DNA of 64,000 bases from a virus (taxonomy: Duplodnaviria; Heunggongvirae; Uroviricota; Caudoviricetes): positions 64,001 through 128,000 of IMG/VR virus record IMGVR_UViG_3300021255_001602. One strand, given 5' to 3'. The position numbers and the translations under genes are program-made. Of the stretch, positions 60,073 through 64,000 are shown in pieces (position 1 is the first letter of the stretch; each line of letters opens with the position of its first letter). The notes under the pieces are model-generated. The model did no database searches and was not told the DNA's origin. It saw nothing but the letters and a program-made list of their open reading frames with translations.

Positions 60073-60202
60073 CGTCAAGGAGCGGAACTCGAATCCACAC
60101 CCTCAATTTCCAAGCTGATTAGGCTCGACTTATGAGTTATCATCAATGTGACGTAGAGTTTGATCAATCCTCTACCGCTCTACCAATTAAGCTATCCTTG
60201 AC
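60073..60202 (-). ncRNA. tRNA-like RNA with an expanded (~78 nt) region between D and T arms
   Basis: GTCAAGGA/TCCTTGAC acceptor, GCTTAATTGGTAGAGC D arm, GTGGA-TTCGAGT-TCCGC T arm. Confidence 0.7.
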
Positions 60203-60206
60203 ACAA

Positions 60207-60279
60207 TTGCACCACTATGAATCGAACATAGACCTCTTCCTATATGTCTGGAAGTGCGCTACCATTACGCCATAGTGCG
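60207..60279 (-). tRNA. Atypical tRNA with CAT-centred 9-nt anticodon loop and C1:A72 mismatch
   Basis: CGCACTA/TGGTGCA; CTTCC-AGACATATA-GGAAG; CTATG-TTCGATT-CATAG. Confidence 0.6.
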
Positions 60280-60422
60280 AACACTTATCATACCTTTTCA
60301 CCTGTCAGCAGTCGATCAGTCTGCTCCACCCTCAGTCACTCTTTTAATCTTCATCCCTCAGTGATATTCTTTGATAAGCGTCAATACATCCATCAATGCG
60401 TCCATCGATTTCTGTATTGAAC

Positions 60423-60493
60423 ATGACCCTAGAGATTCGAACTCTACCTTGTGGTTTTGGAGACCACCGTGCTATCCGCTAACACTAGAGCCA
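60423..60493 (-). tRNA. tRNA-Trp(CCA)
   Basis: TGGCTCT/AGGGTCA; GTGGT-CTCCAAA-ACCAC. Confidence 0.9.
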
Positions 60494-60531
60494 TGTTTAT
60501 ATATAGTTGCATGCAACTTTCTTTTTAGCCA

Positions 60532-60599
60532 ACAGGACGCTTTGTTTTGGTTATATAGATTAAAAGTCTATTCCTAAATAATTTTGCTGTAAGCGTCCC
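60532..60599 (-). ncRNA. CAGCAA-module RNA E1 (stand-alone) displaying a Lys(UUU) anticodon stem-loop
   Basis: GGGACGCTT/AAGCGTCCT stem, ACAGCAA, ATAGACTTTTAATCTAT. Confidence 0.8.
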
Positions 60600-60619
60600 A
60601 ATCATACGGAAAGGAGGTG

Positions 60620-60988
60620 TTAATATAATATTTTAAACAAATGAGTCCACCATTCTTCTACGATTTCCCAAATGTTTTCTTTATGTGTTTCTATTAATAT
60701 ATTTTTTGCTGATCTATCAATGTCCTGAAAGCACAATATTGATTCTAAATCTATGAAATCTTTGACTTTGGGGTAAAAGTAATATAAATCTATATCTATT
60801 TCTTTTTTAATTTCATCACACATATAACAATAAGTATCATGAAGAAAAGTCCAGAATGTAAAATCATTTACATAAGCATCCCACTTATTTTTATCTTCCA
60901 TTTCCAGACGCTTCTCGTGCGAATGACTTAACAATTCCTTTGCTTCTTCATAAGTTAATGGTGACTCATCTAACCAATTAATTTTCAT
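60620..60988 (-). CDS. Hypothetical protein
   Basis: 122 aa with AAAGG RBS. Confidence 0.6.
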   Translation of the reverse strand: MKINWLDESPLTYEEAKELLSHSHEKRLEMEDKNKWDAYVNDFTFWTFLHDTYCYMCDEIKKEIDIDLYYFYPKVKDFIDLESILCFQDIDRSAKNILIETHKENIWEIVEEWWTHLFKILY

Positions 60989-61051
60989 TTATTTTACCTT
61001 TTTCGAGTATTTTGTTTTATATTTTTCGTTTTTTTTGTAAGTGTCACATAA

Positions 61052-61168
61052 AAGCGTGGGAGGGATTCGAACCCCCGATGTCATTATAAGAATAGACATA
61101 GATTATTTGCTGTAAAAATCACGGGCATGATTCGTTTTTTCTTCCTTCGACCACTTGGATACCACGCT
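61052..61168 (-). ncRNA. tRNA-like RNA E2 (type II scaffold, anticodon arm replaced by the CAGCAA module)
   Basis: AGCGTGG/CCACGCT; TCCAAGTGGTCGAAGGA; AATCATG/CGTGATT + ACAGCAA; GGGGG-TTCGAAT-CCCTC. Confidence 0.75.
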
Positions 61169-61179
61169 ATAGTTACAAA

Positions 61180-61268
61180 ACAGGATTCGTTATTAGGGAT
61201 TTGAACCCATTCACTCAAATTTTTGCAGAATTTTCATTTATCCATTTTTGTTTTGCTGTGCGAACCCC
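61180..61268 (-). ncRNA. CAGCAA-module RNA E3 (stand-alone) with Cys(GCA) stem-loop and T-arm remnant
   Basis: GGGGTTCG/CGAATCCT; ACAGCAA; AAATT-CTGCAAA-AATTT; GGG-TTCAAAT-CCC. Confidence 0.75.
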
Positions 61269-61272
61269 AGAA

Positions 61273-61730: not shown

Positions 61731-61800
61731 ATATATTTAATTCAGGTTATTGTTCCACTATCAACTACTTACAGAGTCCTCTTACTCAAGCCTGAATTAA

Positions 61801-61873
61801 TCGGAGTGACAGGATTTGAACCTGCGGCCTCATAGACCCAAACCATGCGTTCTACCAGCTGAACTACACCCCG
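61801..61873 (-). tRNA. tRNA-Pro(TGG)
   Basis: CGGGGTG/CACTCCG; CATGG-TTTGGGT-CTATG. Confidence 0.92.
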
Positions 61874-61884
61874 ATTTTACTTAT

Positions 61885-62140
61885 TGAATGGCGGGTATAC
61901 GCCTGACCGATGCTGGCACCAGTCACCTTGAATTGCCTATGCCATTACTAGATAGGCTCACGTTCCCTAATCTTGTGTGCGATTGCTGTGCATGCGTCAC
62001 GATCATGACGCATTCATTTACTTTTGTCTCAGTACTCTGTGCCTACTCAAAAGTAAACGTGTCCTTTCTCAGGACAAATGAATGGAATATATAGCGTCCA
62101 TCGGCGCTTATGATACAGGTTTTAAGTGTCTGTATCCACT
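61885..62140 (-). ncRNA. Larger multi-hairpin RNA E7 containing the CAGCAA module
   Basis: ATGCGTCATG/CGTGACGCAT + GC + ACAGCAA; extra stems CATTCATTT/AAATGAATG, TTTACTTTTG/CAAAAGTAAA, TGACTGGTGC/GCATCGGTCA; boundaries uncertain. Confidence 0.55.
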
Positions 62141-62147
62141 ATATGAA

Positions 62148-63656
62148 TTATCTGACCGTAATCGGTTCATATCGTTTTGCGTTGACAACCTGCATTACAA
62201 AATCCATAGGACTCATACCAATTGCGCCAATTAGATTCTTGAATGTACCCGCAGACTGACCACTTACAAGAATAACTCCCTTGCGATTCTTATCTGCGTG
62301 GAATACGTCATGACGGCTCTCGACATTCCAAAAGATAACAGAGGGAATCTCATAACCATTTCTAGCAAATTCGCTCCTCATCTGATCATAGAACGTCCAA
62401 TTTTCACCACCACAATAATCAAATTCCATATCAGAAATGATAACCAATGCCTTAGGCATATCTTCCTGAGGAATATGATACTGAATAGCCGTATCAAGAA
62501 TCATTTCAAAAGCAGCCTTACAATTGGTACTGCCACTCCAATTATGATAATTAATATTATTAAGAATCTGTTTCAGTGTCTTTCCCTTAATCTGCTGATA
62601 AGAAGGATTAGAACTGAAATTCATCCACAAATTCTTGAATGCCCCATGATTCCTTTGAGCAAAATAGATTGCCAGACTAACAGCTGTATCCATTGGTCTG
62701 CCCATCATAGAACCGGAAGTGTCTGCAATAACAATTGCGTTAGTGCCTTCATTTACATAATTAGGAAGCTGATCCCACTGTGCCTGAAGAACATTCTCTT
62801 CTGTTTCATTCAGAAGATTTCCAGAATAGTAGTTCGCGTTCCAACAATTATGAGATGAATACTTACTAATAATGTCATACGGATACAACGTACTGGAATT
62901 AATTTTCACTTCTCCAGTGACCGCTTTCTGCGCAAACTGGTTGAAGCGCTCTTCGTCATGCTTCTTAAAAGCATTTCTGTAAATCATCATGGCTCTGGAA
63001 GGAACTTCGGAGTACTTAATTTCATCCCAACGTCCAGTAGACATAAGTGCCTCTACGATACCAATCTGCTTACGCATCGCACGCACGATTCTCTTGAAAT
63101 TATATACATCATATCCAAGTTTCTGTGCGGTCAGAATGCCAAGAGCACGAGTTTTGTCTGAAGAAGCATCTGCGGTCTTAATCCATTTAGCCAGAAGAGA
63201 GATAGCGTTTCCTTTAGCCATATTAGCGAGGTCTTCCTCAAACTGTTTCTTCATGGCTACCCACATTTCATTTTCAAGAGGAGTGCCGACCAGTTCATAC
63301 AAATCATCATATCGACCATAAACACCAATCAGGTCAAGATTAGGACGGATTACCTCAGGATGGTATTTAGCGCAATATTTCAGAATAACCCTGAATACTT
63401 TGCGTTCTCCAAGACCAGATGTCTCTTCATCACCACGGATATCTCTTGCGTAAAAGAGAATTTTTGTGGCAATAAGAGGATTTGCCTTATATGCTTCCTC
63501 AAAAAGTGTGGTGATACGTGTTTCATCTGCATTTCTGAGAGCACCAATTGTACCGAACAAATCGAGCAGTGCATCACTTGTTGTGTTCAATGCAACAGCA
63601 CCATTTTCAGTACGTGTCCATTTCTGTTCCTGTTTCATAGCTTCTGCAAAATTCAT
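62148..63656 (-). CDS. TROVE/Ro60-like helical-ring + vWA protein (DUF2828-type)
   Basis: TENGAVA...LLDLFG, FYARDIRG..GLGERK, LLAKW, YSEVPSRAM, C-terminal IADTSGSM MIDAS motif, ISDMEFD, FWNV; ATG at 63656 with AAAGGAG RBS. Confidence 0.85.
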   Translation of the reverse strand: MNFAEAMKQEQKWTRTENGAVALNTTSDALLDLFGTIGALRNADETRITTLFEEAYKANPLIATKILFYARDIRGDEETSGLGERKVFRVILKYCAKYHPEVIRPNLDLIGVYGRYDDLYELVGTPLENEMWVAMKKQFEEDLANMAKGNAISLLAKWIKTADASSDKTRALGILTAQKLGYDVYNFKRIVRAMRKQIGIVEALMSTGRWDEIKYSEVPSRAMMIYRNAFKKHDEERFNQFAQKAVTGEVKINSSTLYPYDIISKYSSHNCWNANYYSGNLLNETEENVLQAQWDQLPNYVNEGTNAIVIADTSGSMMGRPMDTAVSLAIYFAQRNHGAFKNLWMNFSSNPSYQQIKGKTLKQILNNINYHNWSGSTNCKAAFEMILDTAIQYHIPQEDMPKALVIISDMEFDYCGGENWTFYDQMRSEFARNGYEIPSVIFWNVESRHDVFHADKNRKGVILVSGQSAGTFKNLIGAIGMSPMDFVMQVVNAKRYEPITVR

Positions 63657-63674
63657 CTTTTTATCTCCTTTTTT

Positions 63675-63755
63675 CATGACACCGTATTGGGGATTCAACG
63701 CCCCTAGTTTTTTTGTAGTTGAATTATTTTCTTGTTACTTTGCTGTGTGTGTCAC
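63675..63755 (-). ncRNA. CAGCAA-module RNA E8 (stand-alone) abutting the RBS of the TROVE-like gene
   Basis: GTGACAC/GTGTCAT; ACAGCAA; GGGG-CGTTGAAT-CCCC T-arm-like hairpin. Confidence 0.7.
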
Positions 63756-63758
63756 AGA

Positions 63759-63884
63759 ATCGTATGGAATGGATTCGAACCACTGACCCGCTGACCCATA
63801 ACTTGAATGTTTCGCTGTCATAATCACGAACATGATTAATGAATTCTTTTTTCAGCTGCTCTCCCAACTGAGCTACCATACGAT
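63759..63884 (-). ncRNA. tRNA-like RNA E9 with anticodon loop replaced by a 57-nt module
   Basis: ATCGTATGG/CCATACGAT; AGCTCAGTTGGGAGAGC; GCTGA[57 nt]TCAGC; AATCATG/CGTGATT + ACAGCGAA; AGTGG-TTCGAAT-CCATT. Confidence 0.8.
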
Positions 63885-63886
63885 AT

Positions 63887-63943
63887 TCAGGACTCGTTAT
63901 TTTCTTTGATCCGCTATCAAAATAATTTTGCTGTATGAGTCCC
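63887..63943 (-). ncRNA. CAGCAA-module RNA E10 (stand-alone)
   Basis: GGGACTC/GAGTCCT; ACAGCAA; inner hairpin TTTGAT-AGCGG-ATCAAA. Confidence 0.75.
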
Positions 63944-63968
63944 TTTTATTTAATTTTATTTTCTTTAT

Positions 63969-64000
63969 ACAGGACGCTAAAGGAGGGATAAACCGTGAAA
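63969..64000 (-). ncRNA. Probable further module RNA E11, truncated by the window end
   Basis: 3' strand AGCGTCCTGT identical to that of E1. Confidence 0.5.

What the first reader, a model, noticed from the sequence alone, without database searches (positions are those of the whole stretch)
60073..64000. Candidate new RNP system: Ro60/TROVE-like protein with an expanded family of tRNA-mimicking partner RNAs
Seen: a 502-aa TROVE/vWA (DUF2828-type) gene flanked on both sides, same strand, by 10 complete copies (E1-E10) plus one truncated copy of one module: a 7-10 bp helix followed by ACAGCAA or a close variant. Five are stand-alone (E1, E3, E6, E8, E10), four sit in tRNA scaffolds (E2, E4, E5, E9) and one in a larger RNA (E7). 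They are interleaved with genuine tRNAs. Known: Ro60/Rsr rings bind Y RNAs through a conserved helix, some bacterial Y RNAs (YrlA) mimic tRNA, and Ro genes often lie near RNA-repair genes. I do not recognise this motif as the canonical Ro-binding consensus. Inference: one protein loads a library of RNAs with a constant handle and variable tRNA-derived effector parts, acting as decoys for anticodon nucleases or as adaptors for tRNA repair/decay.
Basis: partly seen in the sequence, partly recalled or inferred. Interest (0 to 1): 0.95.

Follow-up and report, generated by a model that had tools for sequence, protein, structure and literature searches.

The report
Phage Ro60-like protein with ACAGCAA-handle RNAs
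A gut phage encodes a ring-shaped relative of the RNA-binding protein Ro60, surrounded by eleven small RNAs that share one conserved "handle" and carry pieces of tRNA or whole tRNA bodies. The same protein-RNA pairing recurs in very different phages, so it is probably an undescribed Y-RNA-like particle used in conflicts over tRNAs.

Summary
On the minus strand of 60531-64000 lie ten complete copies and one cut copy of a module: a 7-10 bp helix, about 2 nt, then ACAGCAA. Five copies close a stand-alone RNA, four sit as capped hairpins in tRNA scaffolds and one in a larger RNA. They flank a 502-aa DUF2828/vWA gene whose model folds like Ro60.

A covariance model of the stand-alone form hits only next to DUF2828 genes. 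All 14 hits in five named phage genomes lie there, as do all five in this genome. In the reverse test, 24 of 28 model-positive IMG/VR records carry the gene against 3 of 27 controls. Phages with canonical TROVE Ro60, and tRNA-rich phages without DUF2828, have no hit.

Payloads are enriched for tRNA-type arms (Lys UUU most often). The hairpin form sits in tRNA scaffolds in at least nine lineages.

Rfam has no family for these RNAs. The only near-match is the Dictyostelium Class I RNA, which shares the stem, CUUACAGCAA and the terminal CUG.

Binding and function (decoy or adaptor in anti-defence) remain inferred.

This scan has already noted the same pairing in at least 217 other genomes. I found no publication describing the RNA family.

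The parts
63968..64000 (-). E11, 3' part only. The stand-alone module is cut by the window end; the full element runs to window-equivalent 64063 and starts GGGACGC-AC-GCAGCAA.
   Evidence: Genome sequence beyond the window. R1 gives 21.8 bits at L002 6968-7063.
63886..63945 (-). E10, stand-alone module RNA (GGGACUC-AU-ACAGCAAA ... GAGUCCUG).
   Evidence: R1 47.4 bits, E 6e-8. Fold.
63759..63884 (-). E9, a full tRNA cloverleaf whose anticodon loop is replaced by a 57-nt insert. The insert carries the capped-hairpin module (63810-63838) plus ACAGCGAA.
   Evidence: Rfam tRNA 47 bits. The hairpin finder shows a 7-bp acceptor stem and a T arm. Fold.
63673..63757 (-). E8, stand-alone module RNA (GUGACAC-AC-ACAGCAAA ... 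GUGUCAUG). It ends just before the ribosome-binding site of the DUF2828 gene.
   Evidence: R1 32.5 bits. Sequence.
62148..63656 (-). Gene for a 502-aa DUF2828 + DUF7788 (vWA, MIDAS DxSxS intact) protein with a Ro60-like ring fold.
   Evidence: Pfam. AF2 model pLDDT 79, pTM 0.72. The top 13 Foldseek PDB hits are all Ro60. D312, S314 and S316 are invariant.
61885..62060 (-). E7, a larger structured RNA just downstream of the gene, holding a capped-hairpin module (61981-62013) plus ACAGCAAU. It is not in a tRNA scaffold.
   Evidence: It is conserved in L003, L004 and L006. RNA-library contigs cover it.
61492..61559 (-). E6, stand-alone module RNA whose payload is a Ser(UGA)-like anticodon arm.
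   Evidence: R1 46.5 bits. RF01414 aligns over its full length at 24.7 bits. The genome has no tRNA-Ser gene.
61393..61480 (-). E5, an 88-nt tRNA-like RNA (8-bp acceptor stem, D arm, T arm). The anticodon arm is replaced by the hairpin and a degenerate motif (UCUGCAAAA).
   Evidence: ARAGORN. Fold. Hairpin finder.
61273..61389 (-). E4, tRNA-Thr(GGU) with a 43-nt module insert (61319-61361) between anticodon-stem positions 28 and 29. The anticodon arm stays intact.
   Evidence: Sequence read. Alignment with homologues, including a tRNA-Asn(GUU) with the same insertion site.
61179..61270 (-). E3, stand-alone module RNA whose payload holds a Cys(GCA)-like arm and a T-arm-like hairpin.
   Evidence: R1 22.9 bits. 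9-bp closing helix. The genome has no tRNA-Cys gene.
61052..61168 (-). E2, a tRNA scaffold (7-bp acceptor stem, large D loop, T arm) with the hairpin module (61105-61133) in place of the anticodon arm.
60531..60601 (-). E1, stand-alone module RNA displaying an 18-nt exact copy of the phage tRNA-Lys(UUU) anticodon arm.
   Evidence: R1 52.6 bits, E 3e-9. Sequence identity with tRNA-Lys at 59641-59715.
61641..61874 (-). Genuine tRNA-Leu(UAA) and tRNA-Pro(UGG), interleaved in the array.
   Evidence: ARAGORN and Rfam.
60206..60495 (-). Genuine tRNA-Met(CAU) and tRNA-Trp(CCA) in the same operon.

Best explanation
The 502-aa protein is a Ro60-like ring (HEAT-repeat ring plus vWA/MIDAS domain) of the DUF2828 branch. 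The eleven RNAs around it are its Y-RNA-like partners.

The shared handle is a 7-10 bp helix followed, after about 2 nt, by single-stranded ACAGCAA. That strand lies in an asymmetric internal loop leading into a second helix. The handle is the inferred protein-binding site. The variable part is the working end, and takes three forms:
- a bare anticodon stem-loop (Lys UUU, Ser UGA, Cys GCA here)
- a permuted tRNA-like body (in relatives)
- a complete open-ended tRNA into which the handle is grafted as a capped hairpin

The whole array, gene included, is probably transcribed from one strong promoter just beyond the window end and then processed.

The particle most likely acts in phage-host conflict over tRNAs. 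It would present tRNA look-alikes on a protein platform, either as decoys for anticodon-directed nucleases or as adaptors that bring tRNA-recognising host enzymes to the ring.

Shown: the fold, the conserved covarying RNA module, strict two-way co-occurrence with the gene, and enrichment of tRNA-type arms in the payloads.
Inferred: binding, processing and the anti-defence role.
For: Protein:
- Pfam DUF2828 plus DUF7788.
- Foldseek: the top 13 PDB hits are all Ro60, full length, E 2.6e-8 to 9.4e-6. They include phage phiLo Ro60 (9KOP), Xenopus 1YVR, Deinococcus Rsr 2NVO and human 9NEN. Swiss-Prot models give Ro60s and telomerase p80.
- The MIDAS residues are invariant.

RNA module:
- 28 stand-alone modules from 14 lineages share a 7-bp helix in which all 7 pairs show double changes.
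- The hairpin form keeps the terminal nucleotides of the stand-alone form (..UCAUG/GUGA.. or ..CUUG/AAGA..) inside its loop. It is therefore an exact circular permutation.

Co-occurrence:
- R1 hits lie only on the gene strand, beside DUF2828 genes, in 23 sources.
- All 14 hits in five whole named phage genomes (628 kb) lie within about 3 kb of the gene. All 5 hits in this genome lie in 60531-63945.
- Reverse test: 24 of 28 R1-positive IMG/VR records carry PF11443 against 3 of 27 R1-negative pattern matches, Fisher P 1.9e-8.
- Of six tRNA-rich control phages, only the one with DUF2828 has R1 hits. Two with canonical TROVE Ro60 have none.

Payloads:
- 65 of 168 modules hold a 5-bp/7-nt tRNA-type arm against 11 expected.
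- The Lys(UUU) loop is kept while its stem covaries in eight or more lineages.
- 12 of 16 hairpin modules lie in full tRNA scaffolds.

Published context: Bas63 gp130, a Ro60-like protein directly upstream of the tRNA genes of a Felix O1-type phage, counters the ppl defence system, and its authors guessed that some tRNA genes are Y RNAs (PMC11482910). All 252 Felix O1-type records keep the DUF2828 gene beside the tRNAs.
Against: - No binding, expression-end or phenotype data exist for this phage.
- RNA-library contigs show only presence and may contain DNA.
- The protein fails the TROVE sequence model.
- The handle is unlike the Ro-binding site in the YrlA consensus, so the Ro/Y analogy rests on fold and architecture.
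- The instances used for the covariation count were picked by requiring a helix, which inflates the paired fraction.
- In jumbo phages some modules lie 10-17 kb from the gene.
- The only experimental phenotype for a family member concerns a DNA-directed defence candidate (ppl), not an anticodon nuclease.
- No RNA-repair genes were found here.
Confidence: 0.7

Rival explanations
1. The modules are cis-acting signals of the operon, not trans-acting partner RNAs. They would be processing sites for the polycistronic tRNA transcript, or leader elements through which the DUF2828 protein (or another factor) autoregulates its own translation.
For: The array appears to be one operon behind a single perfect promoter. 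E8 ends immediately before the gene's ribosome-binding site. In many relatives the last module ends 10-70 nt before the start codon.
Against: - There are up to 11 copies per genome, both upstream and downstream of the gene and up to 17 kb away.
- Copies are grafted inside tRNA bodies with the would-be termini sealed in a loop, which makes no sense for a cleavage signal.
- The payloads are themselves conserved tRNA-type arms.
- The architecture equals that of free, abundant Class I RNAs.
Confidence: 0.1
2. The hairpin modules in tRNA genes are a new kind of small intron or mobile insertion. They would be removed to give working tRNAs (Thr GGU, Asn GUU), with the DUF2828 protein as splicing or maintenance factor. 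The stand-alone copies would be excised or free forms.
For: Removing 61319-61361 restores a perfect tRNA-Thr(GGU). The same 28/29 insertion site recurs in tRNA-Thr of relatives, where the anticodon switches GGU/UGU within Thr, and in a tRNA-Asn(GUU) of a distant phage. The stand-alone form is the circular permutation of the inserted form.
Against: - Other scaffolds have no recoverable anticodon arm (E2, E5, E9), so removal would not yield a tRNA.
- No joint skipping the insert was seen in RNA-library contigs, while an unspliced contig was (weak evidence).
- No ligase or splicing endonuclease was found.
- From my own knowledge, bacterial tRNA introns are group I introns located in the anticodon loop.
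Confidence: 0.08
3. The RNAs and the protein are independent passengers of phage tRNA islands. The RNAs work alone or with a host protein (for example as sponges for tRNA-modifying enzymes), and the DUF2828 protein binds something else.
For: Both always lie in or beside tRNA clusters. No binding data exist.
Against: tRNA-rich phages without DUF2828 (T5, a T4-like Klebsiella phage, a cyanophage, and two with canonical Ro60) have no module. The one control phage with the gene has three. The reverse test gives an odds ratio of 48.
Confidence: 0.07

Closest known systems
Ro60 (Rsr)-Y RNA particles, including YrlA tRNA mimics (Rfam RF02553; Chen et al. 2014, PMC4201824) and Thermus phage phiLo Ro60 with Yrl1/Yrl2 (PMC12135203)
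   Same: Ring plus vWA fold. Small RNAs are encoded beside the gene. The RNA design is a terminal stem, an internal loop and a variable end. The variable end mimics tRNA: long-payload relatives give sub-threshold YrlA hits with a T arm, a sealed acceptor stem and a D arm.
   Different: - The protein does not match the TROVE model.
- The handle (helix plus ACAGCAA) is absent from the YrlA consensus and from phages with canonical Ro60.
- Copy number is much higher (11 here).
- Many payloads are bare anticodon arms.
- A second topology grafts the handle into open-ended tRNAs.
Class I RNAs of dictyostelid social amoebae (Rfam RF01414; Kjellin et al. 2021, PMC7919456)
   Same: 55-70 nt RNAs with a short covarying stem joining the 5' and 3' ends. 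The conserved motif lies directly 3' of the 5' stem strand; CUUACAGCAA is identical in E1 and E6. The 5' G pairs with the C of a terminal CUG(U). The remainder is variable, and there are many copies per genome.
   Different: Scores are 23-25 bits, below the gathering score of 41.5. Class I RNAs have eukaryotic promoters (DUSE). Their only reported direct binder is the RRM protein Rnp1A, and they were reported as unique to Dictyostelia. I could not test whether dictyostelids encode a DUF2828 protein.
Bas63 gp130, a Ro60-like anti-defence protein of a Felix O1-type phage (PhageMaP preprint, PMC11482910)
   Same: The gene sits directly upstream of the tRNA cluster. Felix O1-type phages carry a DUF2828 homologue (31% identity) with four modules among the tRNAs.
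   Different: The preprint identified no RNA partner. The phenotype is relief of the ppl system, whose target is proposed to be DNA. I did not open the Bas63 record itself.
Intron-bearing tRNA genes
   Same: E4-type genes give a perfect tRNA once a precisely bounded insert is removed.
   Different: The insert lies within the anticodon stem (positions 28/29). It is 42-46 nt long with no group I features. Sister scaffolds lack any anticodon arm.

Membership tests
DUF2828/DUF7788 proteins (PF11443 + PF25043) | Match to both Pfam models above their curated cut-offs | tested here: met
   135.6 bits (cut-off 29) and 131.5 bits (cut-off 27.1).
Ro60/TROVE proteins | HEAT-repeat ring followed by a vWA domain with a MIDAS site (fold) | tested here: met
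   Foldseek gives full-length matches to 13 Ro60 chains, TM 0.36-0.58, E down to 2.6e-8. DxSxS is invariant. The model is of medium confidence (pLDDT 79).
Ro60/TROVE proteins | Sequence match to the TROVE model PF05731 | tested here: not met
   No TROVE hit at E<0.01. No hit in the whole genome, while the controls rang. No PDB hit by sequence.
Ro60/TROVE proteins | Binds Y RNA on the outer ring surface and single-stranded RNA in the central hole | not testable with these tools
   Needs biochemistry or a structure.
YrlA (RF02553) | Covariance-model score at or above the gathering score (69 bits) | tested here: not met
   No hit in the window at E<=1. Relatives reach 44.9 and 39.8 bits on long-payload modules.
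YrlA (RF02553) | tRNA-like domain (T arm, sealed acceptor stem, D arm) on a protein-binding stem | tested here: inconclusive
   Present in phiSHEF13 and MAckerman RNAs. In this window, tRNA mimicry takes other forms: bare anticodon arms and open-ended tRNA scaffolds.
Dictyostelium Class I RNA (RF01414) | Terminal stem, adjacent ~11-nt motif, and conserved G...CUG(U) ends | tested here: met
   The full-length alignment of E6 to the consensus shows all three features. They are described in PMC7919456.
Dictyostelium Class I RNA (RF01414) | Covariance-model score at or above the gathering score (41.5 bits) | tested here: not met
   23.1-24.7 bits for E1, E6, a Felix O1-type copy and a P100 copy.
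Dictyostelium Class I RNA (RF01414) | Shared protein partner (a DUF2828 protein in dictyostelids) | not tested
   No eukaryotic genomes are available. Swiss-Prot models show no dictyostelid DUF2828. Organism names were withheld in AFDB clusters. Avesson 2011 is not held.
tRNA (RF00005), for the scaffolds | Cloverleaf with acceptor stem, D arm, T arm and a usable anticodon arm | tested here: inconclusive
   E9 scores 47 bits but has no anticodon. E4 has an intact Thr(GGU) arm split by the insert. E2 and E5 lack an anticodon arm.

The most novel reading that the evidence does not exclude
The ACAGCAA-handle RNAs and the Class I RNAs of Dictyostelium would be one ancient RNA class whose common partner is the DUF2828 Ro60-like protein, shared by phages, giant-virus-labelled contigs and eukaryotes. 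That would give the enigmatic, developmentally important Class I RNAs a protein partner and a Y-RNA-like mechanism, and would overturn the view that they are unique to social amoebae.
Probability: 0.3. Interest if true: 0.9.

Novelty: new variant of a known kind. Interest (0 to 1): 0.8.

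Why it matters
DUF2828 proteins occur in about 700 sequenced phages, including Felix O1, P100/A511-type Listeria phages, staphylococcal and enterococcal therapy-type phages, KVP40-like vibriophages and cluster L mycobacteriophages. 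They also occur in thousands of metagenomic proteins, yet have no known ligand.

A conserved, easily recognised RNA partner makes the family directly testable. It would extend the Ro60/Y-RNA principle to a second, sequence-unrelated-looking branch. It would also explain many "odd tRNA" and "pseudo-tRNA" annotations in phage tRNA islands.

The display of anticodon arms, with Lys UUU foremost, links the system to the current question of how phages survive tRNA-cleaving defences. One family member is already an experimentally supported anti-defence gene.

The match to Dictyostelium Class I RNAs could connect a phage system to an unexplained eukaryotic RNA class.

Tried and rejected
- Rfam at permissive thresholds on the window and on eight relatives gave only tRNAs, sub-threshold YrlA and Dicty_Class_I_RNA hits, and unrelated neighbours (ROOL, HEARO, tmRNA). 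No family fits.
- A sequence search of PDB found nothing.
- The promoter or terminator reading of the motif is rejected. Only one strong promoter heads the array, and the motif lies on the transcribed strand inside RNAs.
- The RNA-repair neighbourhood is not supported. There are no RtcB or Rnl2-type matches in the genome, and the Rnl1 model rang in no control, so it is uninformative. Neighbouring genes are a replicative helicase, a recombinase-type ATPase, integrase-like proteins and a lone ligase Ia domain.
- Attempts to learn whether dictyostelids encode DUF2828 all failed. I tried Swiss-Prot models, AFDB clusters (names withheld), the ESM Atlas (plants and viruses only at the level shown), a homology search from a giant-virus-labelled homologue, and literature searches. 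Avesson 2011 and the Chen 2014 supplements are not held.
- Metatranscriptome runs are available only as contigs, so RNA ends, strand and splicing could not be read.
- The first version of the stand-alone alignment mis-registered four rows (three L010 copies and one Staphylococcus copy). I dropped them before model building; the model still recovered them.

Full report
**What is there**

The window is bases 64001-128000 of a 140.5-kb IMG/VR phage record. DNA runs that hold it come from gut metagenomes. Everything of interest lies on the minus strand.

A perfect TTGACA-16-TATAAT promoter lies just beyond the window end, at window-equivalent 64217-64190. Behind it come, in order:
- an 86-nt tRNA-Gln-like gene
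- E11, E10, E9 and E8
- a 502-aa gene
- E7
- tRNA-Pro and tRNA-Leu
- E6, E5, E4, E3 and E2
- a 122-aa ORF
- E1
- tRNA-Trp and tRNA-Met, and further tRNAs

These were read.

Exact ACAGCAA occurs seven times in 3.4 kb of this strand, where about 0.26 is expected. Three further copies are close variants.

**The protein**

It matches DUF2828 and DUF7788 (the vWA part) strongly and does not match TROVE. An AlphaFold model built on 17 homologues (pLDDT 79, pTM 0.72) finds Ro60 and nothing else at the top of the PDB. Hits include phage phiLo Ro60, Xenopus, human and Deinococcus Ro60, all aligned over the full length. Ro60s and telomerase p80 top the Swiss-Prot models. The MIDAS DxSxS motif is invariant.

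So the protein works like a Ro60 ring by fold, but it is not a member of the TROVE sequence family. Homologues occur in 696 phage records. These include Felix O1-type phages, P100, Tsamsa, staphylococcal, enterococcal and Campylobacter phages, KVP40-like vibriophages and cluster L-size mycobacteriophages annotated "Ro-like". In each of the eight named loci I opened except MAckerman and the almost unannotated VH7D record, the gene lies in or beside annotated tRNA genes.

**The RNA module**

In the stand-alone form, a 7-10 bp helix joins the two ends of a 55-95 nt RNA. The 5' strand is followed by about 2 nt and ACAGCAA(A/U). The payload then usually folds into a second stem. The whole is therefore stem, asymmetric internal loop, stem, which is the Y-RNA plan.

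In the second form the same helix is capped by a 3-4 nt loop, and ACAGCAA follows its 3' strand. The nucleotides that end the stand-alone RNAs (..UCAUG / GUGA.. in this phage group..CUUG / AAGA.. in others) are kept inside that loop. The hairpin form is therefore an exact circular permutation. Those nucleotides must belong to a recognition surface rather than serve only as processing signals.

**Co-occurrence, forward**

The motif recurs upstream or downstream of the DUF2828 gene, with helices that covary:
- in IMG/VR relatives down to about 40% protein identity
- in all eight named phages I opened

I aligned 28 stand-alone copies from 14 lineages. All seven helix pairs show double compensatory changes. 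These copies were selected for having a helix, so the paired fraction is partly by construction.

The covariance model R1 then hit only the gene strand, next to the gene or in its tRNA island, across 23 sources. In five complete named phage genomes (628 kb), all 14 hits lie within about 3 kb of the gene. In this genome all five hits lie in 60531-63945.

**Co-occurrence, reverse and controls**

An 18-nt pattern scan of IMG/VR gave 80 loci, a number close to what chance alone would give. Thirty of them are R1-positive.
- R1-positive: of the 28 testable records, 24 carry PF11443. The four without it are 14-80% complete fragments.
- R1-negative: 3 of 27 carry it.
- The odds ratio is 48, P 1.9e-8.

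I also picked six tRNA-rich phages only for their tRNA-Pro similarity or fame. Just one, Stenotrophomonas DLP_6, has R1 hits, and only that one has DUF2828. Roots515 and Karp carry canonical TROVE Ro60 and have no hit. T5, a T4-like Klebsiella phage and a cyanophage have neither gene nor hit. The module therefore follows the DUF2828 branch specifically, not tRNA islands and not Ro60 in general.

**Payloads**

Of 168 distinct stand-alone modules in the held loci, 65 contain a 5-bp stem with a 7-nt loop carrying U at loop position 2 and a purine at position 6. Shuffling predicts 11.
- Long payloads carry T arms. Two relatives give sub-threshold YrlA hits with a T arm, a sealed acceptor stem and a D arm.
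- Short payloads carry anticodon arms. Lys UUU is the commonest, with the loop constant while the stem covaries. Pro UGG, Asn GUU, Cys GCA, Ser GCU and others follow.

In this window:
- E1 carries an 18-nt exact copy of the phage's own tRNA-Lys arm.
- E6 carries a Ser(UGA)-like arm and E3 a Cys(GCA)-like arm, although the phage has no tRNA-Ser or tRNA-Cys gene.

**Hairpin modules in tRNA scaffolds**

Of 16 strictly defined hairpin modules, 12 sit in a scaffold with a perfect 7-bp acceptor stem and a T arm, across at least nine lineages. Three grafting sites occur:
- replacing the whole anticodon arm (E2, E5)
- replacing the anticodon loop (E9)
- between positions 28 and 29 of the anticodon stem, with the anticodon arm left intact (E4)

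The 28/29 site recurs in tRNA-Thr of relatives, where the anticodon changes between GGU and UGU but stays Thr. It also recurs in a tRNA-Asn(GUU) of a distant phage. This keeps a small-intron reading alive at low odds. Sister scaffolds without any anticodon arm argue that the insert is meant to stay, and no spliced joint was seen (weak).

**Comparison with what is known**

Rfam 15 has no family for these RNAs. The YrlA consensus lacks the motif.

The only near-match is the Dictyostelium Class I RNA. Its consensus (a G-initiated 6-bp stem, CUUACAGCAAU, a variable region, the 3' stem strand, then CUG) aligns end to end with E6. The scores are only 23-25 bits against a gathering score of 41.5. Kjellin et al. 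describe exactly these features and conclude that the class is unique to Dictyostelia.

Pfam describes DUF2828 as eukaryotic and viral. Structure and atlas searches show plant and other eukaryotic members. A contig labelled as a giant-virus bin carries three good modules. I could not test whether dictyostelids have the gene.

In the held literature I found no description of the RNA family. The PhageMaP preprint shows that Bas63 gp130 (Ro60-like, upstream of the tRNAs) counters the ppl defence, and guesses that some tRNA genes are Y RNAs. The phiLo paper shows that a canonical phage Ro60 binds two upstream Y-like RNAs and host PNPase.

**How it most likely works**

Each step is marked as shown or inferred.
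- One operon yields the protein and a set of processed small RNAs (inferred from the single promoter).
- The ring binds the helix-plus-ACAGCAA handle (inferred from co-occurrence, covariation and the permutation).
- The variable ends present anticodon arms or tRNA bodies (shown at the sequence level).
- The particle then either sequesters enzymes that recognise those parts, with anticodon nucleases the obvious candidates given Lys UUU, or recruits tRNA-handling enzymes to the ring as Y RNAs recruit PNPase (inferred).
- The module just before the ribosome-binding site may additionally allow autoregulation (speculative).

I put the partner-RNA claim at about 0.7 and any specific function at about 0.3.

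**Earlier notes of this scan**

After reaching these conclusions I looked up the scan's notes. The same pairing has been recorded in at least 217 other genomes, and several follow-ups also noticed the Class I resemblance. These are unchecked AI notes. They agree with my results but are not independent evidence. This window adds one of the largest arrays, with both topologies side by side and the 28/29 "tagged tRNA" class.

Noticed in passing
window 60073-60202 (-): A tRNA-like scaffold with a perfect 8-bp acceptor stem, a D arm and a T arm, and about 78 nt of extra hairpins in the centre. It has no ACAGCAA motif and was not called by ARAGORN or Rfam.
   Followed up: partly
L002 7063-7148 (-), i.e. 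just beyond the window end: An 86-nt tRNA-Gln(UUG) with a long variable-arm hairpin, which is unusual for tRNA-Gln. It is the first gene behind the operon's promoter and is conserved in relatives L003, L004 and L006.
   Followed up: no
window 59034-59375 (-): A 113-aa protein consisting only of the N-terminal Ia (NAD+-binding) domain of NAD-dependent DNA ligase (PF22745, E 2e-29), encoded between tRNA clusters.
   Followed up: no
L018 2459-3010 (Listeria phage P100): A ROOL RNA-like element (86 bits, just under the gathering score of 99.1) lies in the same tRNA island, about 1 kb upstream of the DUF2828 gene and its three modules.
   Followed up: no
L005 8384-8568: A sub-threshold HEARO RNA match (47.5 bits against 83) in a close relative's tRNA island.
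   Followed up: no
window 61505-61557 and 61897-62146: In four metatranscriptome runs, the contigs covering E6 and E7 have the highest depths (up to 51 and 40) among the contigs laid on this stretch. The E6 part recurs in contigs whose flanks differ from this phage. This shows presence only; strand and RNA ends are unknown.
   Followed up: partly
L030 116-720 (-) and L015 47-109 (-): Contigs labelled as giant-virus bins carry modules. L030 holds three near-identical AAAGACAC-UA-ACAGCAAU RNAs. L015 holds a CCAGCAA variant lying divergently upstream of a DUF2828 gene.
   Followed up: partly
L002 7674-8594 and 11851-12897 (-): A MrpR-like core-binding-domain protein and a tyrosine integrase are encoded upstream of the RNA operon in this otherwise lytic-looking 140-kb phage.
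   Followed up: no
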